Origin: Saprospira grandis str. Lewin
Lineage (GTDB): Bacteria; Bacteroidota; Bacteroidia; Chitinophagales; Saprospiraceae
Length of the DNA stretch: 64,000 nt
Assembly (NCBI RefSeq): GCF_000250635.1
Contig: NC_016940.1
Location: 1,352,995 to 1,416,994 of the forward strand
Reading direction: 5' to 3'
Shown: positions 19,292 to 37,974 of the stretch, one piece after another
Layout: each line of letters starts with the position of its first letter
How positions within the stretch are numbered: position 1 is the stretch's first letter
Position numbers and translations under genes: made by a program
Notes under the pieces: generated by a model
Database searches by the model: none
The model's input: the letters and a program-made list of their open reading frames with translations, nothing else
Told to the model about the DNA's origin: nothing

Positions 19292-19456
19292 GCAGGGCCG
19301 AAGGCCCGCAAAGGAGCGTAGCGACGCGGCTGAGGGATGGACAGCAGTGGCCGAAGGCCAGACCCAGGCAGCTTTGCTGCCGCAGGGCCGAGCGAACAGC
19401 GAGCTGCGACACAGCCCGACCCAAGGCCGCAGGCCGCAGGGGCAGCCCCAACAAAA
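19292..19456 (-). repeat. GC-rich interspersed element, subfamily A1
   Basis: …GGATGGACAGCAGTGGCCGAAGGCCAGACCC…GCAGGGCCGAGCGAACAGCGAGCTGCGACACAGCCCGACCC…GGGGCAGCCCCAA. Ends 10 nt before the Smr-protein ATG. Confidence 0.85.
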
Positions 19457-19465
19457 AATAAAAAG

Positions 19466-20563
19466 ATGAAAGCAGGAGAAATTATACGATTTATCTATTC
19501 GGGTCAGCGGGCCGAGATTTTGGAAGATTATTTAGATGGCAGCTACCGGGTGTGGTTGTTGGAGGAAGATGAGGAGAGCATTGCCTTTGGGGATGATGTG
19601 GTGCCGGAGGCCCATTATACGGGTCCGCAGATTTCTGATATTCAGCGGGAGTTTGGCAAAAAGAAGCCGAAAAAAGCGCCTAAGGGCTTATCTACGGAAG
19701 AATTATTTTATACCAAGGAAGAGATAGAGGCTCGGAAAGCGGGTCGGCCATTGCCGAAAAAAGAGGCTCCTATTCCGGTTTATCAGGCCCCCAAGATTGA
19801 GGGCAAGGAAGCAGAAAACAAAGGCATTTACCTTGCGTTTTATCCTTATGCGCAGGGGCAATACAGCATCTATTTGGTCAATGATACGCCCTATGGATTT
19901 AACTTTGAGTTTGAGTTGCGGATTTTGCAGGAGCGGGCGCAGGAGCTCAAGCAGCATATTGGGCCACATGATTACTTTCCCATTGCGGAATTTGCGCATG
20001 CCAACTTAAATGATTCGCCTCAGCTTATTTTGCGTTTGCCTATTTTTGAGTTGGAGCACAGCTTTAAGCTCAAGTACAAGAAGTGGATCAAATTGCAGCA
20101 GGCCATTCCCCTATTGGGTTTGGAGCTAGAGGGTTATCCTTGCTTTAATTTGGCGGAGTTGGAGGCGCGCAAGGCGCAGCCCAAAACCAACTTAAAAAAG
20201 TACACCTTGGCGCAGCGCAAAAAGCAGATGCACAAGGAAATTCATCGCAGATATTACAACAAGCAAGATGCGCAGCGACTGGCGCATTTTGACTCTCGTT
20301 TAGATTTGCACATTGAGCTCATTTTTCCGGAAGACTACAAAGACCTACAGCCCTTTGAGTGTTTAGAATTTCAGATAGAGGCCTTAGAAGACTACCTCAA
20401 TCAGGCCTTAGAGATTGGCTTTTCGGGGCAGTTAGAGATCATACATGGCGTGGGCAAAGGTCGTTTGATGAAAGAAACGCATCGGCGTTTGGACCTTTTG
20501 AAGCGCAAAAAGATGATTCGGGGCTATCAGTGCGAGGGGGGCAACACCTTTGTAAAATTCTAG
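19466..20563 (+). CDS. Smr-domain protein (DUF2027-like N-terminal region plus C-terminal Smr nuclease domain)
   Basis: C-terminal LEIIHGVGKGRLMKE…L motif of Smr/MutS2 C-terminal domains. Start moved to the ATG at 19466 outside the repeat. Confidence 0.6.
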   Translation: MKAGEIIRFIYSGQRAEILEDYLDGSYRVWLLEEDEESIAFGDDVVPEAHYTGPQISDIQREFGKKKPKKAPKGLSTEELFYTKEEIEARKAGRPLPKKEAPIPVYQAPKIEGKEAENKGIYLAFYPYAQGQYSIYLVNDTPYGFNFEFELRILQERAQELKQHIGPHDYFPIAEFAHANLNDSPQLILRLPIFELEHSFKLKYKKWIKLQQAIPLLGLELEGYPCFNLAELEARKAQPKTNLKKYTLAQRKKQMHKEIHRRYYNKQDAQRLAHFDSRLDLHIELIFPEDYKDLQPFECLEFQIEALEDYLNQALEIGFSGQLEIIHGVGKGRLMKETHRRLDLLKRKKMIRGYQCEGGNTFVKF

Positions 20564-20972: not shown

Positions 20973-21320
20973 ATGCCACGTTCGGTAAATTCTGTAGCTT
21001 CAAGAAGAAGAAAGAAGAAAATTTTGAAGCAGGCCCGCGGTTACTTTGGAGCGAGATCTAAAGTGTATACCGTTGCCAAAAATGCGGTAGAGAAAGGTAT
21101 GCAGTATGCATACATCGGCCGTAAATTGAAAAAGCGCAGCTATCGTGCTCTTTGGATCCAGCGTATCAACGCTGCTGTTCGCCAAGAGGGCCTCAGCTAC
21201 TCTCGCTTTATGCACCTTTTGTCTCAGAGCGGTATCGAGCTCAACCGTAAAGTGTTGGCCGATCTAGCGATGAACGAGCCTGCTGCTTTCAAAGCTATCG
21301 TGAATGCGGTAAAGAAATAG
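20973..21320 (+). CDS. rplT: 50S ribosomal protein L20
   Basis: 115 aa starting [26 protein letters not shown]. Confidence 0.9.
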
Positions 21321-21654: not shown

Positions 21655-22587
21655 TTAGCTCAGCACCATATCCTCATAGCGGATAAACTGCTCAAAGCCT
21701 TTTTTGGCAAAATAGGCTTTGGTTTCGGCCTCGCTGCGTTGGCTACTGACGAGGACGAAATCGCCGCCCCAGGCGCCTAGGGGTTTCACGGTTCCCCAGA
21801 AATCCTCAAAGAACTGAGCTTTGGGTCCTTCTTGGCCCAAGATGGCTTGCAAAAGGGCCTGATGTTCTTCGAGCAACTCCTCAAAATCTTCCAAATCCTT
21901 ACAGTATTGGGCCAGATTATGCGTAATCTGGCTAATTCTGGGAATGGGTGCTTCTCTTTCCTCTGCGGGTTTCACTTTATAGTGGACCAAAGCTTCGCGG
22001 CTGCTCTGCTTCTTATTGAGGTGCACAAAATAAAGCTGATCTTTAAACTTCGGGGCAAAGGGGGCGGGATAAGCCTGTGGTTGCCCATTAAACAAACGGT
22101 AAAGAATGGGTCCCTGGGCCTTGGCTGCGGCCAAATCATAGCCTGAGCCGCCAAAGCTTTCGGCCAGAAGTTGGTGGGCATCTACCTGCGCCCAATCGGC
22201 TAATAGACTGATTAAGGTAGAAGAAGAACCTAGGCCCCAATCTCTAGGAAACTCTAGTTTTGTGGTTACTTCTAGTCCTTGGCCATCCGCTAAAAAGTTC
22301 GGATTATGTTCTTGAGCAATTTGGAGCAAGATGAGTAGGCGCTCGGCCTCCTCGGCCTCGCCTTCAAACTTAATCAGTTCCAAATCGGGCAGGCTGACCC
22401 AAATCTCTAGCCAGCAATCGCCATTTTCTTCTAGGCTGCGCCAATGCAATTGGCCGGCCTTTTCGCCTTTTTCAACCTGCATACTTTGGCCCTTTTTGGT
22501 GGGCAATGCCAGAGCGGTAGCGCCCTCGGTCACAAAATACTCGGCCGTAAGCAAGAGCTTGCCTTTGGCATGTTGTGAAAAAATCAT
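21655..22587 (-). CDS. GHMP-kinase family protein
   Basis: GLGSSSTLISLLADWA ATP-binding motif. 310 aa. Confidence 0.6.
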   Translation of the reverse strand: MIFSQHAKGKLLLTAEYFVTEGATALALPTKKGQSMQVEKGEKAGQLHWRSLEENGDCWLEIWVSLPDLELIKFEGEAEEAERLLILLQIAQEHNPNFLADGQGLEVTTKLEFPRDWGLGSSSTLISLLADWAQVDAHQLLAESFGGSGYDLAAAKAQGPILYRLFNGQPQAYPAPFAPKFKDQLYFVHLNKKQSSREALVHYKVKPAEEREAPIPRISQITHNLAQYCKDLEDFEELLEEHQALLQAILGQEGPKAQFFEDFWGTVKPLGAWGGDFVLVSSQRSEAETKAYFAKKGFEQFIRYEDMVLS

Positions 22588-22609: not shown

Positions 22610-23419
22610 CTATTTTCCTTCCTTCAATTCGGCCTTGCTATAATAGCTTTGGCCTCTACTATAATACTGCTCTTCCCAAGAGCGGATAGAATGCGGGAAT
22701 TTGGTTTCAAACTGAATTTTCAGGCTGCCTTTTCCCTGCGCATAAGTCAGCTGATAGTTGGCCAACTCTCCTTCTTCGCTGAGGCTTGCCTCTGCCGTTT
22801 TAGGGACCAAAAGACTGTGATACAATTGCGACAACAAACTAGAAGGCAAAAACTCAAAGCGGCCCAAAGGCAGCTTTTCTGGAGAAATGCGAATGAGCGC
22901 AAACAACTCATCTTGCAAAAGCACTTTAGGGAGGTCTCGCTGCTGATCGCCCTCCTTACTAGCATAAGAAAACTGCTGCTGCCGATAATTATAGGCCCTG
23001 AGGTTAATCTGATCAAAACGATGTCCCTCCCAGTTTTGTAAGCTATTGCTCACTTTATAACAAAAAGGCTCCGCCACCAAATCAATAGGGCGAAAAACCG
23101 ACTGCATCAACCGGTACTCCCCCTCCTTAAAACTCCGCAATTGATTGAGCTCCAAAACGGGCATAGCGCCCTCATCCTCGGCCTGCACTTCATGTTGTTT
23201 GGAGCGAGAAAAATACGCCGCCTTGAAAATAAGATGGGCTTGACCCTCATATTTTTGCCCATCTAACTCCTGGACCAAATCATAATGATTGACCTCCCGT
23301 TTGCCTGTTAACCAATAAGCCTTAAATTCTTTAGACGGCTGCCAATTAGGCCCAGCCAAAGAGGAAAAGCCCAAACAACTGGATAATAAGAAAACGGCTA
23401 AAACGGAAAACTGTCTCAT
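22610..23419 (-). CDS. hypothetical secreted protein
   Basis: N-terminal signal peptide (MRQFSVLAVFLLSSCLGFSSLA). Confidence 0.5.
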   Translation of the reverse strand: MRQFSVLAVFLLSSCLGFSSLAGPNWQPSKEFKAYWLTGKREVNHYDLVQELDGQKYEGQAHLIFKAAYFSRSKQHEVQAEDEGAMPVLELNQLRSFKEGEYRLMQSVFRPIDLVAEPFCYKVSNSLQNWEGHRFDQINLRAYNYRQQQFSYASKEGDQQRDLPKVLLQDELFALIRISPEKLPLGRFEFLPSSLLSQLYHSLLVPKTAEASLSEEGELANYQLTYAQGKGSLKIQFETKFPHSIRSWEEQYYSRGQSYYSKAELKEGK

Positions 23420-23537
23420 ATTTTGTGCTTGAAAAAGGATGAGCGAGCAAAAAAAGCAGAATATCTCTTATCTTCCCTTTAGTATGAAGTAGATTAGGAT
23501 GTTAAGACTCTCTAAATATAGCAAAAAATCAAAACTT

Positions 23538-24068
23538 ATGGCGAATTTCTCTTGGCTTCTTCTCTTGGGCTTTCTGACTTTTTCTCTATCCTATGCCAGT
23601 GCTCAAGAACTCATTAGCGACCCGGTCAGCTATGATGTTTTAGTTTTTGAACATTTCGAAAAAGGCAAAACTTACTTTATCCGAAAAGGCGGACGCATTA
23701 AGTACCGCCTCTACAACAGCCCCAAAACGACCTATAAGGGAGAGCTCCAAAAGGTCAATCGAGAAAGCATGATTGTAGATGGCCGAGAAATTCCCCTTAA
23801 AGACTGTAGCCTCATTGCGGGCCGAGTACGCAGCCCCAAAGAGTTTCAAGGCGCTATTCTCCTGGGCATGGGCGCTGGGGTCATCCCCCTATCGGCTGCC
23901 CTTTTGGGCGTCAACAGCATTGCTGGCCCTATTGTTATTGTCGGGGGCGTAGTGGTACTTACGGTAGGAATCATCCGATCTATGTCGGCCCGAAAGTTTA
24001 AAATGACTAAGGGCTGGGCTGCCTATGGCGGGCAACTACAATTTGACAGAAGTTATCAAAAACAATAA
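23538..24068 (+). CDS. hypothetical protein with signal peptide and C-terminal TM helices
   Basis: MANFSWLLLLGFLTFSLSYASAQ signal peptide. Hydrophobic block GAGVIPLSAALLGV…GPIVIVGGVVVLTVGII. Confidence 0.5.
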   Translation: MANFSWLLLLGFLTFSLSYASAQELISDPVSYDVLVFEHFEKGKTYFIRKGGRIKYRLYNSPKTTYKGELQKVNRESMIVDGREIPLKDCSLIAGRVRSPKEFQGAILLGMGAGVIPLSAALLGVNSIAGPIVIVGGVVVLTVGIIRSMSARKFKMTKGWAAYGGQLQFDRSYQKQ

Positions 24069-24069
24069 A

Positions 24070-24885
24070 ATGCTAAAATCCTGGACCTATAAAGAGCAAG
24101 GCCTCGATGCCAAAGTAGAACTCTTTCACGATCATGTTCTCTGGACCAAAACGACCGAACAACTTTATTTTTCACTGGAAGAGGCCCTTTGTCGCCCAGT
24201 TCCCATTGGGCCAAACTGGATTGATGCCGAGCTGATCGACTACCTGCAGTTGCTGCTAGACGAAGTAGAACTATCCGAGGCGGGCCAACTTATTTTTGCC
24301 TTCTACAAGGGCTTGCAAAGCCATAAACTAGTAGAACAAAGCTTCTTTTGGCCAAAACTGGAGGAAAAACAACTGCAGGCCCATTTTTCGGCCCAAGGAC
24401 TACAGCTCCTAGAAGAAAGCCCCTACCAAATTCTGCCCCTGCAAGCACAAAGACTTTGGCATTTTTATCTGCAAGGAAGCAATATCCCCGGCCTGCCCTT
24501 TAAGGAAAGAAGACTTTGGAGCGACCAAATTAAACAGCAGCTCCGCTGGCCCCAACTCGCCCCTCCTTTTGCCTTGCTCGACTATAGCCGCCTGCCCCAA
24601 AAACGCTATGAGGCCCAAGACGAAAATAATGAGCTGCATTTCCTTTGGCTAGAAGAGGATTTTGCCCGAATTGGACAGGGCCGAGGCAGCCAAAGCCGTA
24701 GCGAAAAACGAAGCTACGAACAGTTGCTCCGAGAAGGCGAAAAAGGCCTGCCCAACTGCCTAGCGGCCTATTGGCCCATGCTCTACAAACTCCTCCAAAG
24801 GATGTATATTCGAGGCCAAATGCCCCAGCATCAGGACAAACCCAGCTATGAAGGGCCCGCCCCCGGACAAGCCCCTCCTGCCTAG
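24070..24885 (+). CDS. hypothetical protein
   Basis: 272-aa ORF overlapping the previous stop by 1 nt (ATG at 24070). Confidence 0.45.
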   Translation: MLKSWTYKEQGLDAKVELFHDHVLWTKTTEQLYFSLEEALCRPVPIGPNWIDAELIDYLQLLLDEVELSEAGQLIFAFYKGLQSHKLVEQSFFWPKLEEKQLQAHFSAQGLQLLEESPYQILPLQAQRLWHFYLQGSNIPGLPFKERRLWSDQIKQQLRWPQLAPPFALLDYSRLPQKRYEAQDENNELHFLWLEEDFARIGQGRGSQSRSEKRSYEQLLREGEKGLPNCLAAYWPMLYKLLQRMYIRGQMPQHQDKPSYEGPAPGQAPPA

Positions 24886-24905
24886 TTATTGATCTTCTCT
24901 ATTTC

Positions 24906-25066
24906 TTTTTTTTGGGGCTGCCCCTTCGCTTCGCTGCGGGTCGGGCCATTGCGCAGCTCGCAGGTATGCTCGGCCCTGCACAGGCTGCGCCTGTTTGGTC
25001 TGCCGCCTGCGGCGGCCCTGCTACAGCCCCTCAGCCGATAGGCTGGGGCTTCGCCCCAGCCCCATA
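24906..25066 (+). repeat. GC-rich interspersed element, A1-like with divergent 3' half
   Basis: TTTTTTGGGGCTGCCCCTTCGC…CAGCTCGCAGGTATGCTCGGCCCTGC…CCCCTCAGCC. Confidence 0.75.
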
Positions 25067-25149
25067 AGGTATATGGCTGCGCCATATATTTAGTAAAAAA
25101 TAATTTGGCCCAGCCCAAAATAAGCCCCCAATCAAATTTATTTGCCAAC

Positions 25150-26217
25150 ATGAAATGGTTCCAACGTATCCGAAAAGCCTTTGAGGCCCTTCTAGAAGAA
25201 GATATCGAAAACGATTATGTAGATGATGGCCGCCCTTTCCGAATCTTGAGCCAAGAACGCTCCTTTTTACCCAATTCGGCCAAAGGAGACTTTAGACTCT
25301 ACCGCCTCCACCAAAGCTTTTGCGCCTGCTGGTACGAACTACTGGTCGTCCGCTCCGATGATGGCAACCTCCGTTATGAATTGCCCGGCTGGGGCCGTGC
25401 CGTAGCCATTAGCCCCGATAAAAGCAAGCTCTTAGCCGCCCGAAATAAACAGCTGGCCATATTTAATGCCGCTACCGGCCAAATGATTGGCCAAGAAAAA
25501 ACCCTAGATGCCTTTATCGATTTCCTGCTCTGGCTGCCCAATGAACAAATTGCCGCCACCGATGGAGAAAAAATCTATCTGCTCGACCAAGAGCTAGAAC
25601 TTAAAGCCATTATTCATGACCCCATAGATAAAGGAGGATTTATTGCGGGGATGCAGCTGGGCCAACATCCCCATGAAGTCATTATCCTTGATTTTAATCA
25701 TCAACAACTGAGAAAAATAGACCTGCGATCGGGGGCCATACTCAAAGAATCAACGGCCCAATATGCCGAACAACTGTTTCGACAAGATGACCGCCTCTGG
25801 ACCGCCGTAGTCAATGGGACCCAACTCCAAGAAATTCGCTTTTATAGCCTAGAAAAATTAGAAGAAAAATATGCCCTGCCCTTTAGAGGCAAAAAGGGCA
25901 TCCGCTTCGCCAACCAGCCCCCTTCCGATATTAGTTATCATCATTGGACCTCTTTGCCAGTTCTTTCTCCAGAAGAACAATTCCTGCTGGTGAATGATAA
26001 TGCCGGCCTGCTCTGGCTGCTCGATGCCCATACCGGAGACCACCGCCGGACCTTCTCGCCAAAATTGTTGCCCTATGTCTATGCCTGCCTCTGGCTCAAT
26101 GAAGAAGAATTTGTGGTCCTTTTAGAAGATGGATTTGTGGCCAAGATGAATATCCGATCTAAATCCCTTATGTTTAAACAACAAGATTTTGACCCTCAGC
26201 AAAATCGCTTCTTTTAG
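25150..26217 (+). CDS. hypothetical protein (possible beta-propeller-like)
   Basis: 356-aa ORF from the ATG at 25150. No recognised motifs. Confidence 0.5.
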   Translation: MKWFQRIRKAFEALLEEDIENDYVDDGRPFRILSQERSFLPNSAKGDFRLYRLHQSFCACWYELLVVRSDDGNLRYELPGWGRAVAISPDKSKLLAARNKQLAIFNAATGQMIGQEKTLDAFIDFLLWLPNEQIAATDGEKIYLLDQELELKAIIHDPIDKGGFIAGMQLGQHPHEVIILDFNHQQLRKIDLRSGAILKESTAQYAEQLFRQDDRLWTAVVNGTQLQEIRFYSLEKLEEKYALPFRGKKGIRFANQPPSDISYHHWTSLPVLSPEEQFLLVNDNAGLLWLLDAHTGDHRRTFSPKLLPYVYACLWLNEEEFVVLLEDGFVAKMNIRSKSLMFKQQDFDPQQNRFF

Positions 26218-26354
26218 AGGCGCGAAGCGCCTGGCCTAGCGATGTGCAGCAGTGCGGCGAAGCCGCAGACCAAGGCCGTCAGGCCGCAGGGCCGAGCGAA
26301 CAGCGAGCTGCGAAACGTAGCGCAGCAAGGCGAAGCCGCAGCTGAGGCCCCAAA
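26218..26354 (-). repeat. GC-rich interspersed element, subfamily A2
   Basis: GGCCTAGCGATGTGCAGCAGTGCGGCGAAGCCGCAGACCAAGGCCGTCAGGCCGCAGGGCCGAGCGAACAGCGAGCTGCGAAACGTAGCG…GAGGCCCCAAAA. Ends 40 nt before the helicase ATG. Confidence 0.85.
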
Positions 26355-26394
26355 ACAGACAGACAAAAAAACCTAACCCAACAATTATATTTTT

Positions 26395-29300
26395 ATGCAA
26401 AAAAAAGCAACAGAAGCGCAGTTCTTCTTTTCTCAACTGCTCAAGCTACAGCAAGTAGACCAACCTTTGGGGGCCAAATATCAGGCATTAGATGCCCTTT
26501 TGGTCCAGCTATTTTTACAATTGACCGAAAAAGAGCGCCTACATTTTAGTGATCGCTCGGCACGGATTGCCTTTTTGTCTCATAAAGAAGACCTCAGTCG
26601 CTCGGTTCAATGGCGGATCTACCAAATTATCAAGCGGGCCAAATGGATTCGCAGAAAAGAGCTGGAGCCTACGGCTGGCCAATACGCCTCGGCCCTAAAA
26701 ACCGTGGCCTTTGCCATTGCGGCCCTTTGTCATGTTCCTTTGCCCGAAGAATTGCGGGCCTATTTGCCCAGCGATGAGGAAGAAGAGCAGGAAGACCGCA
26801 ACCCCTTCCCTATTAAAGAAGGCATTATTGAGGAGCTCAAAGTGGTGGTTTTGCAAATTGATGCCGAGCAAGAGCTCATCATCTGCCAACCTTATGGAGA
26901 GGGCTATACCGACCAGCTCAGGCTGCGTTATAATGTGCCCGAAATCAATGCGCAGTTTAACTCGACCATTGAGCTGATGCAAGATCATTTTCCCGCTGGG
27001 GCCATTTTGCAATTGCTGCAGGTCTTGGTAGAAGAATCGGGAATTTTGCTGCCCAAACGCATCATCTTAGAGCCCGACTACTTGGTCGATGTGACCAGCA
27101 TTGCCGAATGTTTTCAGCCACAGGGCGCTTCGCCCTACCTCTTTTTGCTCAAAAAGTTTTCGGCCTATGAAAATAGCCTGCCGCTGATGCTGGGAAATAT
27201 TGCCAACCGCTTTTTGGACCTCTTGAGCAAGAACCCCAAGCTGAGCTTTCAGGAAGAATTCAAGAAGCTCTTTAGCCTCAATCCCTTGGGCTTTGCCGAC
27301 TTTAAGGATACCGATATTCGCAAGACCTATCATGAGGCCAAAAACCACTTTATCAACCTGCAGCATATTATCCTCAATGAGTTTCCCAAGCAGGGCATCG
27401 AGCGAGAGCGCATTTTGTTAGAGCCCTCTTTTTACTCTGCCCTTTATGGGATTCAGGGACGTTTGGACCTCTGGCAGCCGCCAGTAGAAGGCGATGATAA
27501 GGCCTTGATTGTGGAATTGAAGAGTGGCAAAACCTTTATGCCCAATAAGTATAACCTCAATCATAATCACTATGTACAGACCTTGCTCTATGGCTTGCTG
27601 ACCAAATCGGTTTATCCTAGCTATAAGAGTTTGGCCCATATTCTTTACTCCAAATTGCAAGAAAAACCGCTGCGTCTAGCCCCTAGCACGCAGTTTAAGG
27701 AGGATGAAGCCTTGGCCCTTCGCAACCAGATGGTGATGATCGAGCGGCAGCTGGCCCAATTGGACCAAAAATCACTGGAAGAATATGGCCTTTTGCATCA
27801 GTTAGGGCCTGCAATTATGCCCAAAGCTAGCGGCTATACCGCCAGAGGATTGGAAGAATTTGAGGCCTGCTTTTCTAAGCTAAGCGAGCTAGAACGCCGC
27901 TACTTTATTGCCTTTTGTAGCTTTATTGCCAAAGAACAAATTTTGGCCAAAACGGGGGTAGAAGGAAATGAACGCGCCAATGGACAAGCAGGGCTCTGGC
28001 TTAGCGAAAGAGCCGATAAAGACGAACATTTTGAGCTTTTGGCGGGGCTAGAACTACTAGAAAACAATAGCGAACAGGATCCCCCTATTCTCCGCTTTAA
28101 GCGAACGGAAAATACCAACCCCTTGGCCAATTTCAGACAGGGCGATATTGCTATTTTGTATCCCGAAATGGGCCAGGATGACAATGTCTTGAAGCATCAG
28201 ATTTTTAAGGGCTCTATTTCTCAAATCAATGCCGAAGAGCTTTGCTTCAAGCTTTACTCTCCCCAATGTAGCGGCAGCGTTTTTGAGGCGGCCAAAAGCT
28301 GGAGCTTAGAACACGATATGCTCGATAAGGGCTTTACGGTCCAATATCAATCGCTCTTCAAATTCATGAATTTCCATCCGGCCAAGCGACAGCTTTTATT
28401 GGGCCAAAGGGCCCCGCAAAAAAGCAGCGCTCCCCAAAATCGGAGCTTTATGCAGCCCTATTTGGGCGAAGACCAAAAGAGGATCCTCAACAAGGCCTTG
28501 GATGCCCAAGACTACTTTTTGTTGGTGGGCCCTCCGGGCACGGGCAAAACCAAGTTTATGCTGGCCCAAATGGTCGAATATCTCCACCGAAATAGCCAAG
28601 AAAACATCTTGCTTTTGGCCTATACCAACCGAGCTGTAGATGAAATTTGCGAAGCCATTGAGGAAGTGGGTATCCATGATTATCTGCGCATGGGCAGCCG
28701 CTATTCTTGCGATCCTCGCTTTGAACATCGGATGTTTTCGGTGCAAACAGAAGCCCTAGCTAGCCGCAAAGATCTGCGAGCGACCATCGACAAGCATCGA
28801 GTGTTTGTCTCTACGGTTTCTAGCATGCTCAACCGCCCACTTTTGCTCAAGCTCAAGCAATTTAATACTGTCATTATTGATGAGGCTTCACAGATTTTGG
28901 AGCCCATGTTGCTCGGTTTGCTTCCGCATTTTCAGCGCTTTGTGCTTATTGGCGACCATAAGCAGTTGCCGGCGGTAGTTTTGCAAGACAAAGAGCAGTC
29001 GGCGGTTAAAGATGAGTTGCTCCAAAGTATTGGCTTGCGCAATCGCCGCAACTCCCTCTTTGAGCGCTTGTTTGAGCAGGCCCAAAAAGAAGGCTGGACC
29101 CATTGCTACGATCAATTGCAGCATCAGGGGCGGATGCATGCCGAAATAGCCCGCTTTCCCAGCCAATTTTTCTATGATAATAAGTTGTTGGAACTGCCAG
29201 AAGACAATCCTATTGGCGACTGGCAGCAGCAGCCCCTGCCCTTCCGTCCGATGCCCCAGGCCTCTGCTTTGGAGCAGCTTTTGGCCCAGCATCGTCTGCT

Positions 29301-29778
29301 CTTTATTCCCAGTCAATCGGATTATCAGGGCAACAGCAAAACCAATGAAGAGGAAGCCATTCGGGTGGGCGAGCTGGTCCATGCTTTTCGGAACTTATAC
29401 GAGCAGCAGGGTGGCGGTTTTGCGCCAGAGGACCTTGGCATCATCACGCCTTTTCGGGCGCAGATTGCCCAGATTCGCCATGTTTTGGCCCAATATAATA
29501 TGGGTTATGAGCAGTGCAGCATTGATACGGTGGAGCGTTATCAGGGGGGCGCGCGCAAAATCATTCTCTTGTCTTTGGCCATCAATATGAGTCATCAATT
29601 GCCGGCCATTGTCTCTCTTTCCGATGATGAGCAGGTAGACCGCAAGCTCAATGTGGCCCTTACTCGGGCTCGGCAGCAGCTGGTGGTTTTGGGCAATCCC
29701 AAGCTACTGGCCAATGATCCTCGTTATGCGGCCCTAATGGCCTGGATTAAGGAGCGGGGCGGCTACTTTACCCCTTAG
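26395..29778 (+). CDS. Dna2/Bad-like nuclease-helicase: N-terminal RecB/Cas4-like PD-(D/E)xK nuclease plus C-terminal Upf1-like SF1B helicase
   Basis: Nuclease motifs D…ELK…QTLLY (RLDLWQ…LIVELKSGK…YVQTLLYGLL). Helicase motifs LLVGPPGTGKTK (Walker A), IIDEASQ (motif II), LIGDHKQLPAVV, ITPFRAQ, VERYQGG and NVALTRAR. Confidence 0.8.
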   Translation: MQKKATEAQFFFSQLLKLQQVDQPLGAKYQALDALLVQLFLQLTEKERLHFSDRSARIAFLSHKEDLSRSVQWRIYQIIKRAKWIRRKELEPTAGQYASALKTVAFAIAALCHVPLPEELRAYLPSDEEEEQEDRNPFPIKEGIIEELKVVVLQIDAEQELIICQPYGEGYTDQLRLRYNVPEINAQFNSTIELMQDHFPAGAILQLLQVLVEESGILLPKRIILEPDYLVDVTSIAECFQPQGASPYLFLLKKFSAYENSLPLMLGNIANRFLDLLSKNPKLSFQEEFKKLFSLNPLGFADFKDTDIRKTYHEAKNHFINLQHIILNEFPKQGIERERILLEPSFYSALYGIQGRLDLWQPPVEGDDKALIVELKSGKTFMPNKYNLNHNHYVQTLLYGLLTKSVYPSYKSLAHILYSKLQEKPLRLAPSTQFKEDEALALRNQMVMIERQLAQLDQKSLEEYGLLHQLGPAIMPKASGYTARGLEEFEACFSKLSELERRYFIAFCSFIAKEQILAKTGVEGNERANGQAGLWLSERADKDEHFELLAGLELLENNSEQDPPILRFKRTENTNPLANFRQGDIAILYPEMGQDDNVLKHQIFKGSISQINAEELCFKLYSPQCSGSVFEAAKSWSLEHDMLDKGFTVQYQSLFKFMNFHPAKRQLLLGQRAPQKSSAPQNRSFMQPYLGEDQKRILNKALDAQDYFLLVGPPGTGKTKFMLAQMVEYLHRNSQENILLLAYTNRAVDEICEAIEEVGIHDYLRMGSRYSCDPRFEHRMFSVQTEALASRKDLRATIDKHRVFVSTVSSMLNRPLLLKLKQFNTVIIDEASQILEPMLLGLLPHFQRFVLIGDHKQLPAVVLQDKEQSAVKDELLQSIGLRNRRNSLFERLFEQAQKEGWTHCYDQLQHQGRMHAEIARFPSQFFYDNKLLELPEDNPIGDWQQQPLPFRPMPQASALEQLLAQHRLLFIPSQSDYQGNSKTNEEEAIRVGELVHAFRNLYEQQGGGFAPEDLGIITPFRAQIAQIRHVLAQYNMGYEQCSIDTVERYQGGARKIILLSLAINMSHQLPAIVSLSDDEQVDRKLNVALTRARQQLVVLGNPKLLANDPRYAALMAWIKERGGYFTP

Positions 29779-29833
29779 TTTTCTCCTTTCTGATCTTAAT
29801 TTATCCCGCTAGTCATCATGACTAGGGGGATAT

Positions 29834-29987
29834 TTTTTTGGGGCCTGCCGCCTTTGGCGGCCGGGCCCTTGCAGGGCTCGCAGGTCTGCTCGGCCCTGCG
29901 TCGCCTTCGGCTCCTTGGTCTGGCCTGCGGCCACCCTTTCAGGCCCCTAGGCCGTTTGGCCTTCGGCCATGGGGCGGCGAAGCCGCC
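29834..29987 (+). repeat. GC-rich interspersed element, hybrid subtype (TTTTGGGGCCTGCCGCC… with an A1-like GGTCTGGCCTGCGGCCACC 3' part)
   Basis: Shares its architecture with the copy at 62963. Confidence 0.8.
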
Positions 29988-30106
29988 TGTTTAAATAGTC
30001 TCATGGGCTGTTTAGAGCCATGGGCTGAAGCCCTTGTTTGCTGAGGGGGCGGGACTGCTCAGGATTTTGTGTATCCGAATAAAATTTGGGCTTTTAGCTT
30101 GTTAGG

Positions 30107-30183
30107 ATTTGGCCAATAGTCGCCTAGGGACAAGCCCCTAGGCTAGCTTTTTCAGACAGCCCTCTAAAGAGGGCCTTTGGATG
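30107..30183. mobile_element. solo terminal fragment of family B MITE-like element
   Basis: GCCAATAGTCGCCTAGGGACAAGCCCCTAGGCTAGCTTTTTCAGACAGCCCTCT…GAGGGCC matches the right arm of 21451..21627. Confidence 0.6.
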
Positions 30184-30252
30184 AGATTCAGCTCTGCTAT
30201 AACGACTGGTCAAGGACCTGTATATCAACCTTTGGGGCTAAGCAGTTTACTT

Positions 30253-30563
30253 CCAGACCGAACTAGTTCACCGCCAGACCGAACTAGTTTACCTCCAGAC
30301 CGAACTAGTTCACTTCCAGACCGAACTAGTTCACCGCCAGACCGAACTAGTTTACCTCCAGACCGAACTAGTTCACTTCCAGACCGAACTAGTTCACTTC
30401 CAGACCGAACTAGTTCACCGCCAGACCGAACTAGTTCACCGCCAGACCGAACTAGTTTACCTCCAGACCGAACTAGTTTACCTCCAGACCGAACTAGTTT
30501 ACTTCCAGACCTAACTAGTTCACTTCCAGACATAACTAGTTCACTTCCAGACATAACTTTTGC
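30253..30563. repeat. tandem array, 21-bp unit x~15 (CCAGACCGAACTAGTTCACyk), each unit carrying the 10-bp perfect palindrome GAACTAGTTC
   Basis: Three unit variants differ only in the last 5 nt. The last 3 units degenerate (CTAACTAG, ATAACTAG). The array is open in several frames, giving a spurious PDRTSS-repeat ORF. Confidence 0.9.
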
Positions 30564-30636
30564 CTTTTTTCATTTTGTTGCGTTTTTTTTAGTTTTTAAC
30601 AAATCTCTAACAATTCAGTATAAAAAAAGGGGGATG

Positions 30637-30756
30637 AGCGGCCTAGCGATGCGGAAGGGGGCGGCGAAGCCGCAGACCAAGGCCGTCAGGCCGCAGGGCC
30701 GAGCAGCCTTGCGAGCCCTGCAGCGTAGCGCCTGCCGCAGGCAGGAGGCCCCAAAA
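30637..30756 (-). repeat. GC-rich interspersed element, subfamily A2
   Basis: GGCCTAGCGATGCGGAAGGGGGCGGCGAAGCCGCAGACCAAGGCCGTCAGGCCGCAGGGCCGAGCAGCCTTGCGAGCCC…GGAGGCCCCAAAA. Confidence 0.85.
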
Positions 30757-30813
30757 CAAAAAAGGCCAGCCCCAGAGGAGCTGACCTTCGTCAGTAATTA
30801 GTTAGCTAAGTCA

Positions 30814-33800
30814 TTAAGGCTTAACGACTTCAAAGTTCAGTTGGCTTTGCACGGCCTCGATATGAACATTAAGATAATAAGTACCTGCGGGTAGGTTTTG
30901 GATAGCATCTAGGGTAATGAGGTCGCCGGGGCGGACCGTTTGGCTGCTGCTAAAGACTTGGCGGCCGAGTACATCTAGGAGTTTGAAATTCACTTGGCTC
31001 GTTGTTTTGAGCTGGCTAAAGCGGATATTTACAAAATCGCTAGCGGGGTTCGGGAAGACCGTCACATCTAGTTCTGAGCTATTATTGACGGCACGGACCT
31101 CAGCGTACTCAAAGTCTCCGTTAAAGTCGACTTGTCGCAGGCGGTAGTAAGTTGTATTCTCGTAGCTATTATAGTCGGTATAGCTATAGTAGTTGGCGGT
31201 TGAGCTATTGCCTTGACCTTGGACAAAATCGATTTGGCTAAAGTCGGTTTCATAGTCAAACATGCGTTCTACCTCAAAGCCGCGGTTATCTCTTTCTGTT
31301 TCGCTGGCCCAAGAGAGGAGCACTTCAGAAGAAGACTGGCGTTCGGCATCGAAGAAGAGCCATTCGATGGGGAAATCGACATAAGTATTGGCATCGCGCC
31401 AGTCATTATCGTCGAGTCCGTCATTGTTGGGAGTTGGAGCGGTAGTACCGAGGGCGCTACCATTCACATTATCGTCAAAAATATCGGCGAGACCATCATT
31501 ATCGGCATCGATCCAGAAAGGAGAGTTAGGATCGAGGAAAGGAGGTGTTTGGTTATTGGTATAGCCATCTCCGTTGAGGTTATCTAGCCAATCGGGTAGG
31601 CCATCGCCATCGCTATCGGTATTGGGATAGTGAGCGGGGTTACCGCCGTTGGCGACATAGGCTGTGGCCATTTGGATAATTTCGTCGGCGGCATTGCCAT
31701 CGCCAGCGGTGGCGGTACCGAAGCCATTATCAAAGCCTTCGGCCCAGTCGAAGCCGCTATCATTATCAGAGTCGAGATCTAGATAATCTGCGGGAGCGGT
31801 GCCATCATTATTATCCTCATTGGGCGTAGCGCCGATATTTGCGCCTGCTGCTTGGTTGGCAGCATCTAGGCCTTCGTAGATATCGAGTACACCGTTTCCA
31901 TTAGCATCGGCGCCAGAAGGCGTCATGCCGAAGGTGGGGCAAGTTGAGCAAACGGCTTCTAGATAATCTGGGATACCGTCATTATCGGCATCGATATCAT
32001 AGAGGTCGGCAATACCGTCGCCATCTGTATCTAGGAGGTTAATGGTTCCATTTTGGAGGTCAGACCAGCCGTCGTTATTAGCGTCGGTAATGGGACCATC
32101 TTCAATTTGGCCATCGAGGGTACCGTTGGCGGGAGAATCGGTATTAGCGGCTCCGGTTACTGCTCCTGCTGCGGCTTCTACTACATCGGTAACTCCATCA
32201 TTATCGCTATCGAGATCGAGGAAGTTAGGTGTAGCGTCGGCATCTGCATTAGCATTTGGATAGCTATCTGGAGTGCCATCATTGTTATTGTCGGCGCCAG
32301 TCAAAATGAGTACGGCAGCGCTATTATCGGCAGTACCATCATTATTGGGGTCACCGTCTACGGCATCGGCAAAGCCATCGCCATCGGCATCAGTAAAGAC
32401 ATCTACTTGGCCGTCTCCATCGGCATCCGTTCCATAGGCTTCTAGAATATCTTGGACTCCATCGTTATCGCTATCGAGGTCATAGATATTAAGAATACCG
32501 TCGGCATCGAAATCGCCATTGGGGTAGCTATCGGGTTCGCCATCATTATTATTATCGGCTCCAGTAAGGATAAGGACTTGGGCGCTATTCTCGGCGGTAC
32601 CGTCGTTTCCGACATCGCCATCGAGGACATCATGCAGGCCGTCATTATCGGTATCGACAAAGTCGTCGGCAAAACCGTCTCCGTTGGTATCGGTTCCGCC
32701 AGCTTCTACCACATCTGCGATACCGTCATTATCGCTATCGAGATCATAGATATTAAGGACTCCATCGCTATCTGCGTCTCCGTTAGGGTAATTATCGGGG
32801 GCACCGTCATTATTGACATCATTGCCTGTAAGGATAAGAGCTTGAGCGCTGTTTTCTGCGGTGCCATCGTTTCCGACATCTCCATCGATAACATCATGCA
32901 AACCGTCGTTATCGGTATCGACAAAGTTATCGGCTAGGCCATCGCCATCGGCATCTGTTCCGCCGGCTTCTACTAGATCGGGTATACCGTCATTATCGCT
33001 ATCAAGATCGAGGTTATTCGGAATACCGTCACCATCGACATCATTGTTAAGATAACTATCGGCTAGGCCATCATTGTTATTATCGGCACCAGTAAGTTGG
33101 AGTGCATTAGCGGTATTTTCGGCGGTGCCATCGTTTCCGACATCGCCATCTACGGCATCATGAATACCATCGCCATCGGCATCGACAAAGTTATCGATTC
33201 TGCCATCGCCATCGGCATCAGTTCCGCCGGCTTCTACGGCGTCTGGAATACCGTCATTATCGCTATCGAGGTCAAATTGGTTAGGAATGCCATCGCCATC
33301 ATTATCGGCGAGGAATTCATTGCTACCGTCGGCATCGCGGTCGAGCAATACAGAAGTAGAATTAGCGGCAAGGCAGCTAGGTTGGGGGCCACAGGGGCTA
33401 GTGCCTTCTGGGCCATCGGTATCATCATTATCTACTGCATCGGGAAGGCCATCGCCATCCGAGTCCGTTAAATCATCGAGAATACCGTCTCCATTGGTAT
33501 CTACGCCACCAACTTCAACTAGGTCAGGAATACCGTCATTATCGTTATCCAGATCTAGGTGATTGGGTACGCCATCGCCGTCGAGGTCGAGGTTAGAGCA
33601 AGTCCCGTTAGCGTTGAGTCCGCCACAAGTGGGGAAATCAACATCGGCATAATTGGGTGTGCCATCGCCATCTAGGTCGCCATCGGGATCGGGGAGGCCA
33701 TTGGCACAGCTCCAGCCGTTCACGCCATCGAAGAAGGCGGCGCAATAATCGGGATCGGCATAATCGGGAGTACCGTCGCCATCATGGTCACCATTATAGG

Positions 33801-36800: not shown

Positions 36801-37974
36801 TAGGAATAGCTGTTCGCCCTCGAAAAAGAGTAGCCGTAATTTCAAAGCTAGTGGCTCCAGAAACAGGGTTTCCTTGGCCATCTAGACCATCCCAGTTTAG
36901 TACGTGATTACCTGCGGCTAAATCATAAGCCTCAAGAACTCTATCTGCCGTTCCTGACTGATAGCCTGCAACACCATTTAAATCTAAAAGAAGTGCCGCA
37001 TCTCCTGGATCAGGTAAAAACAAAGGGATATAGTATGCACCTGGACAACCATATACATTGGCTGGAATAGCTGGGGCAGCTGAAGGAGGTACTACACGAA
37101 AAATGCTTGTATCAGGCACTGCCAAAAAAACCTCATAGCCATCAGCAAATGCAGGGGAGTTTTGTCCCGAATAAACTGAAGCCCGATCATTGACAAAATC
37201 TCCATTATCAACAACTCCATACTTGTTCATCGCCAATACATATCCCAAAGGGCGAAAGCCAGTTTGAAAATTCATCCGAACAACAGAGCTATCTGAAGTA
37301 TACGCATAATAATCTCCTTCAAAAGAAAAGTTAATAGAAGGCGTAAAGTCTGGACTTGCAGGGTCATATGTAATAAATGACCAGCGCTGACAGTGTAAAC
37401 GTCCCTCTAAGAAAGTATTGGTCCCATTCTCTGCTACTGTAATATCAAAGTAGGGAAAAAAGATTTCGCCGTTGGCAGAGGCATCTGCTGTAGCTCCACC
37501 ATCTGTACTTTGAAATAGCTCAATACGATAATCCCCGTTTTGAGTGGGGGTAAATGTAAGCGGAGTATAGCCAGCAGGATTTGTTCCTCCAATATTTGGC
37601 CCTGCTACTGCTTCATTATAGGTATTGATGAAGCCAGCTCCTGCTGTTTGTAATAAAAAGGCTGGAACGACTACAGTACCTAAGGGGTCGATAACTCGAA
37701 TATAGACATTATTAGGTCTGCTCACTGCAGGAAGCCGCTCGTACATATTAAAGCCCAAATAAATTGTCTCCGTACTAAAGTCAGAAATAGAGACCTTTAA
37801 GCCATTGTTTACCCCAGAGTTGAGGTAAGAGCCATTTCCCAAGGACTGCCGAATCCAGAGGGCCGTTCCATTGGTACTGTTAGGCATTACCTGGGCTGTC
37901 CCTTCTGCTCTTAACTGGGCAGAAAAGAACAAAAGCAATGCACTTAAAATTAAGTGATAGTAAATTCTTTTCAT
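30814..37974 (-). CDS. giant (2386 aa) secreted protein with dozens of thrombospondin type-3 (calcium-binding DxDxDGxxDxxD) repeats and a T9SS C-terminal sorting domain
   Basis: Signal peptide [24 protein letters not shown] ~100-aa module ([25 protein letters not shown]…[12 protein letters not shown]…[10 protein letters not shown]) is repeated more than 10 times. C-terminal [14 protein letters not shown]…LDVLGRQV is CTD-like. Confidence 0.85.

What the first reader, a model, noticed from the sequence alone, without database searches (positions are those of the whole stretch)
23538..29778. Dna2/Bad-like nuclease-helicase preceded by three unknown genes: housekeeping repair enzyme or Nhi-like defence module?
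The 1127-aa protein combines a RecB/Cas4-type PD-(D/E)xK nuclease (D…ELK…QxxxY) with a complete Upf1-like SF1B helicase core. This is the architecture of eukaryotic Dna2 and of its bacterial homologue Bad. It is also the architecture of the single-protein anti-phage system Nhi.

It is preceded on the same strand by three uncharacterised ORFs. These are a signal-peptide/TM protein, a 272-aa protein and a 356-aa protein. The ORFs are separated by repeat-element insertions, so operon structure cannot be read off directly.

Whether this is a core genome gene or an accessory defence locus is unresolved from the sequence.
Basis: partly seen in the sequence, partly recalled or inferred. Interest (0 to 1): 0.5.

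Follow-up and report, generated by a model that had tools for sequence, protein, structure and literature searches.

The report
Core Bacteroidota Dna2-like nuclease-helicase gene
The 1127-aa gene is a vertically inherited, iron-sulfur-free bacterial counterpart of the eukaryotic DNA-repair enzyme Dna2, found throughout the phylum Bacteroidota; it looks like a genome-maintenance gene rather than an anti-phage system, and the three genes in front of it are lineage-specific neighbours, not partners.

Summary
Window 26395-29778 (+), from Saprospira grandis, encodes a 1127-aa protein with a RecB-type PD-(D/E)xK nuclease (E343, D358, E374-x-K376, Q395xxxY399) in front of a complete Upf1-like SF1B helicase.

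Sequence and predicted fold match mouse Dna2 from end to end, but the family has no Fe-S cysteine set.

It is not Nhi: the PADLOC Nhi model gives 20 bits on the P-loop only, and there is no DUF2075 domain. It is not Bad-like in layout or distribution.

Evidence for a core genome-maintenance gene:
- Full-length orthologues occur one per genome in the 80 best species hits (at least 594 relatives found), and also in Cytophagales, Myroides and Bacteroides.
- Their tree follows taxonomy.
- dN/dS between strains is 0.04.
- Neighbours are ordinary genes (rplT, tatC), and the N-terminal half finds nothing in phage records.
- No neighbour family is shared by more than 11 of 80 loci.

The three upstream ORFs are real genes but are not a conserved module:
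- U1 has no family match and was found beside the helicase only in Saprospira; U2 has only two clusters in the database.
- U3 is a WD40-like propeller that abuts the helicase only in Saprospira and one sister clade.

Verdict: a housekeeping Dna2-type enzyme and an Fe-S-free variant of a known kind. Interest is moderate.

The parts
26395..29778 (+). Dna2-family nuclease-helicase gene (1127 aa), the actual feature
   Evidence: ORF. Best PDB hit is mouse DNA2. Full-length fold match to 5EAN. At least 594 relatives in species genomes. dN/dS 0.042 against S. grandis DSM 2844.
26395..26793 (+). N-terminal helical domain, aa 1-133 (no Pfam match)
   Evidence: AF2 model helices H2-133. Conserved across the family (A1). 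No Pfam hit even at E<=10.
26812..27072 (+). OB-like beta-barrel, aa 140-226
   Evidence: AF2 secondary structure E140-156, E161-166, E175-178, H186-198, E204-213, E218-226. The region lies within the full-length Foldseek alignment to Dna2. Calling it an OB fold is an inference from the strand/helix order.
27073..27759 (+). RecB-type PD-(D/E)xK nuclease domain, aa 227-455. Motifs: EPDYLVDVTSIAEC(239)F; E343; GRLD358 (27466-27468); E374-L-K376 (27514-27522); Q395xxxY399 (27577-27591). No Fe-S cysteine triad.
   Evidence: Aligned to the Dna2 nuclease. Catalytic residues are 100% conserved in 234 members. No column has >=15% Cys between aa 400 and 605, and C239 is only 80% conserved. Pfam Dna2 PF08696 is sub-threshold: 12 bits against a cutoff of 22.4.
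27832..28398 (+). Helical stalk and beta-barrel (1B-like) linker, aa 480-668, including the invariant NFRxGD motif
   Evidence: AF2 model. Aligned to the corresponding Dna2 segment. N579, F580, R581, G583 and D584 are invariant.
28462..29754 (+). SF1B (Upf1-like) helicase core, aa 690-1120. Walker A GPPGTGKT at 28528-28551; Walker B DE at 28879-28884.
   Evidence: Pfam AAA_11/AAA_12. K718, T719, D829 and E830 are invariant in 234 members. PDB hits to Upf1, IGHMBP2 and Sen1.
25147..26217 (+). U3: 356-aa protein with an N-terminal helix and a 7-blade WD40-like beta-propeller. It is a neighbour and a possible clade-specific co-transcribed gene, not a conserved partner.
   Evidence: AF2 pLDDT 86.5. 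Foldseek hits to G-beta/WD40. Only 12 homologue clusters. It abuts the helicase in L084 and L088, lies elsewhere in L085-L087 and is absent upstream in Aureispira. dN/dS 0.11.
24070..24885 (+). U2: 271-aa orphan with only two homologue clusters in the database; context only
   Evidence: Two homologue clusters among 5.8 billion sequences. No family hits. dN/dS 0.22. Also present in Saprospira sp. CCB-QB6.
23538..24068 (+). U1: 176-aa predicted secreted or membrane protein; context only
   Evidence: Sequence. No family hit above threshold. dN/dS 0.09. Found near the helicase only in Saprospira.
24915..25065 (-). Copy of the dispersed GC-rich intergenic repeat between U2 and U3
26228..26345 (+). 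Copy of the dispersed GC-rich intergenic repeat between U3 and the helicase gene

Best explanation
The gene encodes a chromosomal, vertically inherited Dna2-family enzyme of the phylum Bacteroidota.

Inferred mechanism, by homology with Dna2 and Bad:
- A free 5' single-stranded DNA end threads through the PD-(D/E)xK nuclease domain into the SF1B motor.
- The motor translocates 5'->3' on ATP hydrolysis.
- The nuclease cuts the threaded strand endonucleolytically.
- The enzyme therefore trims 5' flaps or resects 5' strands during replication, repair or recombination.

Unlike Dna2, AddB, Cas4 and Bad, it works without the four-cysteine 'iron-staple' Fe-S cluster.

It is a stand-alone gene. U1-U3 are lineage-specific neighbours. 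U3 may be co-transcribed with it in Saprospira and one sister clade.

Shown here: homology, domain architecture, conservation of catalytic residues, absence of the cysteine set, phyletic pattern and gene context.

Inferred only: substrate, polarity and cellular pathway.
For: - Dna2 homology. PDB sequence hit to mouse DNA2 is E 6e-37 and profile E 1.6e-57, from nuclease motif I to the C-terminus. The AF2 model has pLDDT 85.6 and pTM 0.80. Foldseek puts Dna2 5EAN first, at E 1e-44 and TM 0.61/0.64 over 1121 columns; Upf1 and IGHMBP2 match the helicase half only.
- Catalytic competence. E343, D358, E374, K376, Q395, Y399, K718, T719, D829 and E830 are invariant in 234 full-length members at 35-92% identity.
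- Breadth and fixed architecture. At least 594 relatives were found in species-representative genomes. The best 80 come from 80 different assemblies and are full length. The N-terminal 560 aa alone finds 1088 representatives at the 50%-identity clustering level, 430 of them at E<=1e-30. Among the 150 best hits listed, most are about 1100 aa long and match the query collinearly.
- Phylum-wide range. The Bacteroides finegoldii orthologue is 35% identical end to end. Named members include Myroides and Sediminitomix.
- Vertical descent. An NJ tree recovers Saprospira, its sister clade, Aureispira, Haliscomenobacter, Phaeodactylibacter, Cytophagales and Bacteroides in taxonomic order.
- Constraint and stable locus. 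dN/dS is 0.042 against S. grandis DSM 2844, like neighbouring housekeeping genes. Gene order is identical in three Saprospira genomes, next to rpmI-rplT.
- Ordinary neighbours. These are rplT, radical SAM, glycosyltransferase, lipase and OmpA genes, and dxs-murF/alr-tatA-tatC in Bacteroides.
- No mobile-element or defence signal. There is no phage hit, and the only three 'plasmid' records are non-mobilizable and either very large or carry core genes around the match. PADLOC hits cover the helicase core only, and the Nhi model gives 20 bits.
Against: - No biochemical or genetic data exist for any member of the family. None was found in the literature: 'Dna2-like' plus 'Bacteroidetes' returned 0 papers.
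- Synteny around the gene is not conserved. At most 11 of 80 loci share a neighbour family. That is also what a mobile defence gene would show.
- Presence in all Bacteroidota genomes was not counted.
- Bad, the one characterised bacterial Dna2-like enzyme, is suspected to be part of a restriction system (PMC7430649). The fold therefore does not exclude defence.
- The helicase core is as close to RNA helicases (Upf1, Sen1, IGHMBP2) as to Dna2, so the DNA substrate is inferred from the whole-protein match only.
Confidence: 0.75

Rival explanations
1. It is a stand-alone anti-phage or anti-plasmid nuclease-helicase that works like Nhi, Hna or a Bad-type restriction enzyme. It would recognise foreign replication intermediates and degrade them.
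For: - Nuclease plus SF1 helicase fusions are recurrent single-gene defence systems (PMC11232893).
- Bad neighbours a Type III-like methyltransferase.
- The PADLOC models MkoA (208 bits), MkoC and PDC-S37/S53/S68 hit the helicase core. NCBIfam PLuB_AAA scores 246 bits.
- The gene neighbourhood is variable.
- A SLFN_AlbA_2 gene lies two genes upstream in Aureispira.
Against: - All defence-model hits cover only the generic helicase core and fall far below family cutoffs: PLuB 246 against 999, ProA 29 against 1500, Nhi 20 bits.
- The family is phylum-wide, is one per genome in the 80 best loci, and has a tree congruent with taxonomy.
- dN/dS is 0.04 and the locus is the same in three Saprospira genomes.
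- Neighbours are housekeeping genes, with no methyltransferase or known defence gene beside it.
- It is absent from 50,697 phage records and from mobilizable plasmids.
Confidence: 0.08
2. The four co-oriented genes U1-U2-U3-helicase form one functional module, in which a membrane sensor, an unknown protein and a propeller regulate the nuclease-helicase. A weaker form is that U3 is a dedicated partner of the helicase.
For: - All four genes are on the same strand in three Saprospira genomes.
- The U1 stop and the U2 start are 1 nt apart.
- A U3 homologue abuts the helicase gene, with a 0-7 bp gap, in two sister-lineage contigs. The 178-bp gap in Saprospira is mostly a later repeat insertion.
- All three ORFs are under purifying selection.
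Against: - U1, U2 and U3 are absent from the flanks of the helicase gene in the 79 other species loci.
- No neighbour family is shared by more than 11 of 80 loci.
- U2 has only 2 clusters in 5.8 billion proteins.
- U3 has 12 clusters. In L085-L087 it sits next to the same epimerase gene but with no helicase within 10 kb.
- Aureispira, the next clade out, has other genes upstream.
- Adjacency is therefore explained by local descent, not by a conserved functional link.
Confidence: 0.07
3. It is an RNA-directed or R-loop-directed Upf1/Sen1-like helicase with an attached nuclease, acting in RNA surveillance or transcription-replication conflict resolution rather than as a DNA flap or end-processing enzyme.
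For: - The helicase core scores strongly against Upf1, Sen1/SETX and IGHMBP2.
- NCBIfam 'IGHMBP2 family helicase' scores 186 bits.
- MkoA, the Mokosh RNA-helicase-like protein, is the top PADLOC hit.
Against: - Only Dna2 matches over the whole length, including the nuclease, the stalk/beta-barrel and the N-terminal part.
- The IGHMBP2 score is below its cutoff of 349.
- RecB-family nucleases with the QxxxY motif are DNA nucleases in every characterised relative: Dna2, AddB, Cas4 and Bad (established knowledge; PMC7430649).
Confidence: 0.1

Closest known systems
Eukaryotic Dna2 (mouse Dna2, PDB 5EAN/5EAW/5EAX)
   Same: - Same order of parts: N-terminal region with an OB-like barrel, RecB-type nuclease, helical stalk and beta-barrel, then the SF1B helicase 1A/2A domains.
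- Similar spacing from the nuclease Asp to the Walker A Lys. It is 360 aa here; it looks similar in the HMMER alignments to Dna2, where the nuclease motif and the Walker A align without a large insertion.
- Best sequence and best fold match over the full length.
- All nuclease and ATPase motifs are present.
   Different: - No Fe-S cluster ligands. Dna2's CxxCxxxxxC aligns to non-cysteine residues, and no Cys-rich column exists in 234 members.
- The N-terminal helical domain is longer (aa 1-133).
- About 20% identity.
- Pfam Dna2 PF08696 scores only 12 bits, below its cutoff.
- It is bacterial and restricted, as far as seen, to Bacteroidota.
Bad, the bacterial DNA2-like helicase-nuclease of Geobacillus stearothermophilus (PMC7430649)
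   Same: [quoted passage not shown] Bad provides the biochemical precedent: ssDNA endonuclease activity, 5'->3' translocase and helicase activity, and a preference for 5' tails.
   Different: - Bad has an Fe-S cluster with four Cys.
- Bad's nuclease sits near the N-terminus (D150), and about 665 aa separate it from Walker A K815, because of a central domain of unknown fold. Here the spacing is 360 aa and the linker aligns to Dna2.
- Bad is 'rare and sporadically distributed' and lies next to a Type III-like methyltransferase. This family is phylum-wide, follows taxonomy and has no methyltransferase neighbour.
Nhi (nuclease-helicase immunity, Staphylococcus)
   Same: A single polypeptide with an N-terminal nuclease and a C-terminal SF1 helicase.
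   Different: - Nhi is about 610 aa, with an HsdR-like nuclease and a DUF2075/Viral_helicase1-type helicase (PMC11232893).
- This protein is 1127 aa with an AAA_11/AAA_12 Upf1-like core.
- The PADLOC Nhi model scores 20 bits on the P-loop only.
- There is no DUF2075 hit, and Viral_helicase1 scores 16.7 bits against a cutoff of 21.
AddB / Cas4 'iron-staple' RecB-family nucleases
   Same: Same nuclease motif set (D, ExK, QxxxY) and a conserved N-terminal helix motif with a Cys (AEC239F).
   Different: They carry one upstream Cys and three downstream Cys that bind a 4Fe-4S cluster. Here only the upstream Cys remains, in 80% of members, and the downstream triad is absent.

Membership tests
Dna2 family (eukaryotic-type nuclease-helicase) | RecB-type PD-(D/E)xK nuclease N-terminal to an SF1B (Upf1-like) helicase in one chain | tested here: met
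   Motifs E343, D358, ExK374-376 and QxxxY395-399, plus AAA_11/AAA_12.
Dna2 family (eukaryotic-type nuclease-helicase) | Whole-chain architecture: N-terminal/OB region, nuclease, stalk and beta-barrel, helicase 1A/2A | tested here: met
   Foldseek puts 5EAN first, with TM 0.61/0.64 over 1121 aligned columns. The model has pLDDT 85.6.
Dna2 family (eukaryotic-type nuclease-helicase) | Four-cysteine 4Fe-4S 'iron-staple' in the nuclease domain | tested here: not met
   Dna2's CxxCxxxxxC aligns to non-Cys residues. Among 234 members no column has >=15% Cys between aa 400 and 605, and C239 is only 80% conserved.
Dna2 family (eukaryotic-type nuclease-helicase) | Match to Pfam Dna2 (PF08696) above the gathering score | tested here: not met
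   12.1 bits against a cutoff of 22.4. A few homologues (P0020, P0025) carry a precomputed PF08696 hit.
Dna2 family (eukaryotic-type nuclease-helicase) | ssDNA endonuclease with 5' end threading and 5'->3' translocation | not testable with these tools
   Needs biochemistry.
Bad (bacterial DNA2-like, Geobacillus) | Fe-S cluster co-ordinated by four Cys | tested here: not met
   Bad features taken from PMC7430649.
Bad (bacterial DNA2-like, Geobacillus) | Bad-specific central conserved domain between nuclease and helicase | tested here: not met
   The nuclease Asp to Walker A Lys distance is 360 aa here, against 665 aa in Bad (D150, K815). The linker here aligns to the Dna2 stalk/barrel. No direct alignment to Bad was possible.
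Bad (bacterial DNA2-like, Geobacillus) | Rare, sporadic distribution with an adjacent Type III-like methyltransferase | tested here: not met
   The family is phylum-wide and its tree follows taxonomy. No methyltransferase was seen among the neighbours.
Nhi anti-phage system | Match to the Nhi profile (PADLOC PDLC02372) | tested here: not met
   E 4e-5, 20.4 bits, aa 689-745 only, which is the P-loop.
Nhi anti-phage system | DUF2075/Viral_helicase1-type SF1 helicase and an HsdR-like nuclease, about 610 aa | tested here: not met
   No DUF2075 hit. Viral_helicase1 scores 16.7 bits, below its cutoff of 21. The protein is 1127 aa. Nhi features taken from PMC11232893.
Nhi anti-phage system | Protects against phage | not testable with these tools
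   Needs a phage challenge.
Mokosh MkoA / other PADLOC helicase-containing systems | Full-length match to the system's protein model and presence of its partner or effector domain | tested here: not met
   MkoA scores 208 bits, but only aa 798-1107 match profile positions 767-1081 of 1112. The neighbours give no PADLOC hits.
NCBIfam PLuB system helicase-like protein / IGHMBP2 family | Score above the curated cutoff | tested here: not met
   PLuB_AAA scores 246 against 999. TIGR00376 scores 186 against 349.

The most novel reading that the evidence does not exclude
Bacteroidota as a whole carry a vertically inherited orthologue of eukaryotic Dna2 that keeps the complete Dna2 domain architecture but dispenses with the Fe-S cluster. 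Bacteroides is already known to have a Pif1 helicase (PMC4605326, listed). Together these would mean a Dna2/Pif1-type 5'-flap or end-resection pathway operates in a major bacterial phylum. This contradicts the view that bacterial Dna2-like enzymes are rare and sporadic. It would also give a natural test of what the 'iron staple' is for, and a candidate bacterial relative for the origin of eukaryotic Dna2.
Probability: 0.3. Interest if true: 0.65.

Novelty: new variant of a known kind. Interest (0 to 1): 0.38.

Why it matters
For the question asked, the result is deflationary. This is not a defence locus and the four genes are not a module, so it should not be pursued as a new immune system.

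What remains interesting is the enzyme family itself:
- It is a large, architecture-uniform, phylum-wide bacterial Dna2 clade. It has at least 594 species hits and 1088 clusters at the 50%-identity level, and includes gut Bacteroides.
- Automatic pipelines label it only 'AAA domain-containing protein' or 'Dna2'.
- No paper found here describes it.
- It lacks the Fe-S cluster that is considered essential for Dna2, AddB and Bad.

The family therefore offers a tractable bacterial model for Dna2 mechanism without the cluster. It also raises the question of which replication or repair step in Bacteroidota needs a Dna2-type enzyme.

Tried and rejected
- PADLOC, NCBIfam, Pfam and PHROGs scans of U1, U2, U3 and the two divergent neighbours gave no family above threshold. 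The exception was the GYDIA GHMP kinase at 21655-22587.
- The sigma-70 promoter and intrinsic-terminator scan of 23300-30900 found no more sites than shuffles do. The Bacteroidota-type promoter pattern TTTG-N17-21-TAnnTTTG has no match in the locus. Operon structure therefore cannot be read from the sequence.
- Literature searches for a described Bacteroidota Dna2-like enzyme found nothing relevant. One apparent hit, PMC12914056, was a false text match.
- I looked for a conserved partner gene by clustering all flanking ORFs of the 80 loci. None was found.
- I considered that the three 'plasmid' hits might indicate mobility. I rejected this. The records are non-mobilizable, and the B. finegoldii record carries dxs, murF/alr and tatAC around the gene. 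The third is a 1.77-Mb Prevotella replicon whose gene content could not be checked, because no features are annotated there.
- My first dN/dS run for the DUF2027/Smr gene mis-extended the subject sequence and is disregarded.
- A direct comparison with Bad was not possible, because no sequence was available.

Full report
**Observation**

The window is from Saprospira grandis. The locus is 94% identical in DNA to S. grandis DSM 2844, and the protein is 98.5% identical.

Four co-oriented ORFs lie on the + strand:
- U1, 23538-24068, 176 aa from the second ATG. It has a signal-like N-terminus and hydrophobic C-terminal stretches.
- U2, 24070-24885, 271 aa.
- U3, 25147-26217, 356 aa.
- The 1127-aa ORF at 26395-29778.

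The U1 stop (24066-24068) and the U2 ATG (24070) are 1 nt apart.

The U2|U3 and U3|helicase gaps each hold a copy of a GC-rich dispersed repeat, in opposite orientations. Its 12-nt core occurs 23 times in the 64-kb window against 0.5 expected, and a 44-nt core occurs 7 times against 0. These are ordinary genome-wide intergenic elements, not something specific to this locus.

**What the large protein is**

- Pfam recognises only the helicase half: AAA_11 at 3e-29 and AAA_12 at 8e-33, over aa 690-1102.
- Against PDB sequences the best hit is mouse DNA2, at E 6e-37. The alignment starts at nuclease motif I (LEPSFYS ~ IEESIWS), runs through GRLD358, ELK374-376 and QxxxY395-399, and continues to the end of the helicase. 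With a 22-sequence family profile the E-value is 1.6e-57.
- An AlphaFold model built on that alignment has pLDDT 85.6 and pTM 0.80. It shows these parts:
  - a helical domain (aa 1-133);
  - an OB-like barrel (aa 140-226);
  - the nuclease (aa 227-455);
  - a helical stalk and beta-barrel (aa 480-668);
  - the two RecA-like helicase domains.
- Foldseek against the PDB puts Dna2 5EAN first, at E 1e-44 and TM 0.61/0.64 over 1121 columns. Upf1, IGHMBP2, Sen1 and others match only the helicase half.
- In 234 full-length family members (35-92% identity), all nuclease catalytic residues and the Walker A/B residues are invariant. Both activities are therefore maintained by selection.

**What differs from Dna2, Bad, AddB and Cas4**

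The 'iron-staple' 4Fe-4S ligands are missing.
- Dna2's CxxCxxxxxC aligns to non-cysteine residues.
- Across the 234 members no alignment column between aa 400 and 605 reaches 15% Cys.
- The only conserved Cys in the nuclease region, C239 in EPDYLVDVTSIAECF, is replaced by Ser, Ala or Thr in about 20% of members.
- I infer, without a direct structural check, that C239 is the relic of the first cluster ligand.

Pfam's Dna2 model scores only 12 bits, against a cutoff of 22.4.

**Defence or housekeeping?**

No known defence model recognises the protein.
- PADLOC hits (MkoA 208 bits, MkoC, PDC-S37/S53/S68, GajB and others) cover only the generic helicase core.
- The Nhi model gives 20 bits on the P-loop.
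- NCBIfam PLuB_AAA (246 against 999), ProA and Hhe are far below their cutoffs.
- According to PMC11232893, Nhi is about 610 aa with an HsdR-like nuclease and a DUF2075/Viral_helicase1 helicase.

The distribution looks like that of a core gene.
The best 80 come from 80 different assemblies, nearly all full length at 37-98% identity. They cover Saprospira, Aureispira, Haliscomenobacter, Lewinella, Phaeodactylibacter and the Cytophagales Xanthovirga and Flammeovirga.
- No second copy of at least 37% identity turned up in S. grandis DSM 2844.
- The N-terminal 560 aa alone, which excludes the helicase, finds 1088 representatives at the 50%-identity clustering level, 430 of them at E<=1e-30. Among the 150 best hits listed, most are about 1100 aa long and match the query collinearly.
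- Named members include Myroides phaeus and Sediminitomix flava.
- A Bacteroides finegoldii orthologue is 35% identical from aa 25 to aa 1115.
- An NJ tree of 23 orthologues reproduces the taxonomy.
- dN/dS against DSM 2844 is 0.042. For comparison, the GHMP kinase gives 0.055 and the alanine-racemase-domain gene gives 0.027.
- Gene order rpmI-rplT-GHMP kinase-o269-U1-U2-U3-helicase-T9SS giant protein is the same in a third Saprospira genome.

The gene context is ordinary.
- Neighbours elsewhere are rplT, radical SAM, glycosyltransferase, lipase, OmpA and FMN reductase genes.
- In Bacteroides the context is trkAH-dxs-murF/alr-tatA-tatC.
- The N-terminal half has no match in 50,697 phage records.
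- It matches only three non-mobilizable 'plasmid' records: the B. finegoldii record carries core genes around the match, and one is a 1.77-Mb Prevotella replicon.

All of this points to a vertically inherited genome-maintenance gene.

**The three upstream genes**

All three are real genes, with dN/dS of 0.09, 0.22 and 0.11. None matches Pfam, NCBIfam, PADLOC or PHROGs.

None is found beside the helicase in the 79 other species loci.

U2 has only two clusters in 5.8 billion proteins.

U3 is different.
- It is an N-terminal helix plus a seven-blade WD40-like propeller. The AF2 model has pLDDT 86.5, and Foldseek hits G-beta and other WD40 proteins.
- It has 12 homologue clusters.
- In two sister-lineage contigs its homologue ends 0-7 bp before the helicase gene. 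This suggests a clade-specific operon that the repeat insertion has since loosened in Saprospira.
- In three other contigs the U3 homologue keeps its epimerase neighbour but has no helicase within 10 kb.
- Aureispira has unrelated genes upstream.

The adjacency is best explained by local descent. A U3-helicase functional link limited to one small clade cannot be excluded.

**Mechanism (inferred)**

The inference rests on Dna2 and on Bad (PMC7430649), which has ssDNA endonuclease activity, 5'->3' translocase and helicase activity, a preference for 5' tails, and probable threading.
- The enzyme should load on a free 5' ssDNA end.
- It should thread that end through the nuclease into the SF1B motor.
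- It should translocate 5'->3' and cut the strand, which would serve 5'-flap removal or 5'-strand resection.

The pathway is unknown. Bacteroides also has a Pif1 helicase (title and abstract of PMC4605326, listed), so a Dna2/Pif1-like pairing is a reasonable hypothesis to test.

**Comparison and novelty**

The protein works like Dna2 and shares its whole architecture. It fails one defining feature of the Dna2, Bad, AddB and Cas4 nuclease class, the Fe-S staple.

It also fails three features of Bad: the cluster, the central domain and the sporadic, methyltransferase-linked distribution.

I therefore file it as an Fe-S-free variant of the Dna2 kind, not as Bad and not as Nhi.

I found no paper describing this clade. 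JGI already auto-annotates members as 'DNA replication ATP-dependent helicase Dna2', so the homology as such is not new.

As a candidate defence system the finding is negative. As an enzyme family it is moderately interesting.

**Limits**

- No whole-genome census of presence or absence was made.
- There was no direct alignment with Bad.
- Promoter and terminator scans were uninformative.
- No experimental data exist for any member.

Noticed in passing
window, e.g. 3790-3833, 3982-4025, 24915-25065, 26228-26345, 29833-29935, 30640-30760, 40506-40549, 42833-42876, 55759-55802: A dispersed GC-rich intergenic repeat of about 100-150 nt occurs in both orientations. Its 12-nt core GCAGGGCCGAGC occurs 23 times in 64 kb against 0.5 expected. 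Its nature (REP-like or MITE-like) was not determined.
   Followed up: partly
window 30244-30552 (flanks 29833-29900 and 30692-30759): A 21-bp tandem array of 14.7 copies at 92% match lies between two inverted copies of the dispersed repeat. It creates a probably spurious 206-aa ORF (30181-30801) made of PDRTSS-type repeats. Most of 29978-30635 has no counterpart in S. grandis DSM 2844, so the spacer downstream of the helicase gene varies between strains.
   Followed up: partly
window 25147-26217; L084:4187-5206; L088:6903-8000: U3 is a G-beta-like protein (N-terminal helix plus a seven-blade WD40 propeller) from a small family of 12 clusters. It abuts the Dna2-like gene, at a 0-7 bp gap, only in Saprospira's sister lineages. 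Elsewhere it stays next to an epimerase/DUF1731 gene.
   Followed up: yes
window 24070-24885: U2 is an orphan with only two homologue clusters in the 5.8-billion-protein collection. It is under purifying selection (dN/dS 0.22).
   Followed up: partly
P0250 (Sediminitomix flava, 1425 aa), P0262/P0284 (Myroides phaeus, 1470 aa): Some family members are about 300-350 aa longer than the usual 1100 aa or so. Their N-terminal 560 aa are collinear with the query, so the extra segment lies downstream. It was not examined.
   Followed up: no
L090:8848-12255 (Bacteroides finegoldii 'plasmid 23', NZ_OY725925.1): The Bacteroides orthologue overlaps the end of tatC by 26 bp and sits among dxs, murF/alr and tatA. 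The record is labelled a plasmid, but its gene content looks chromosomal.
   Followed up: partly
L081:7364-8287; L089:227-1150: In Aureispira a SLFN_AlbA_2-domain gene lies two genes upstream of the Dna2-like gene, separated from it by a lipase gene on the opposite strand. It has no evident link to the helicase.
   Followed up: no
window 30814-37974 (-): This is a 2386-aa protein rich in Asp/Gly calcium-binding-type repeats. Its Saprospira sp. CCB-QB6 counterpart carries a Por_Secre_tail domain, which marks it as T9SS cargo. About 3-4 kb of its interior aligns poorly between S. grandis strains.
   Followed up: no
window 19337-20563 (+), 20973-21320 (+), 21655-22587 (-): Upstream context: a DUF2027/Smr-domain protein, ribosomal protein L20 (rplT) and a GYDIA-family GHMP kinase (NCBIfam 377 bits). 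rplT lies within a few kb of the Dna2-like gene in 7 other species loci.
   Followed up: partly
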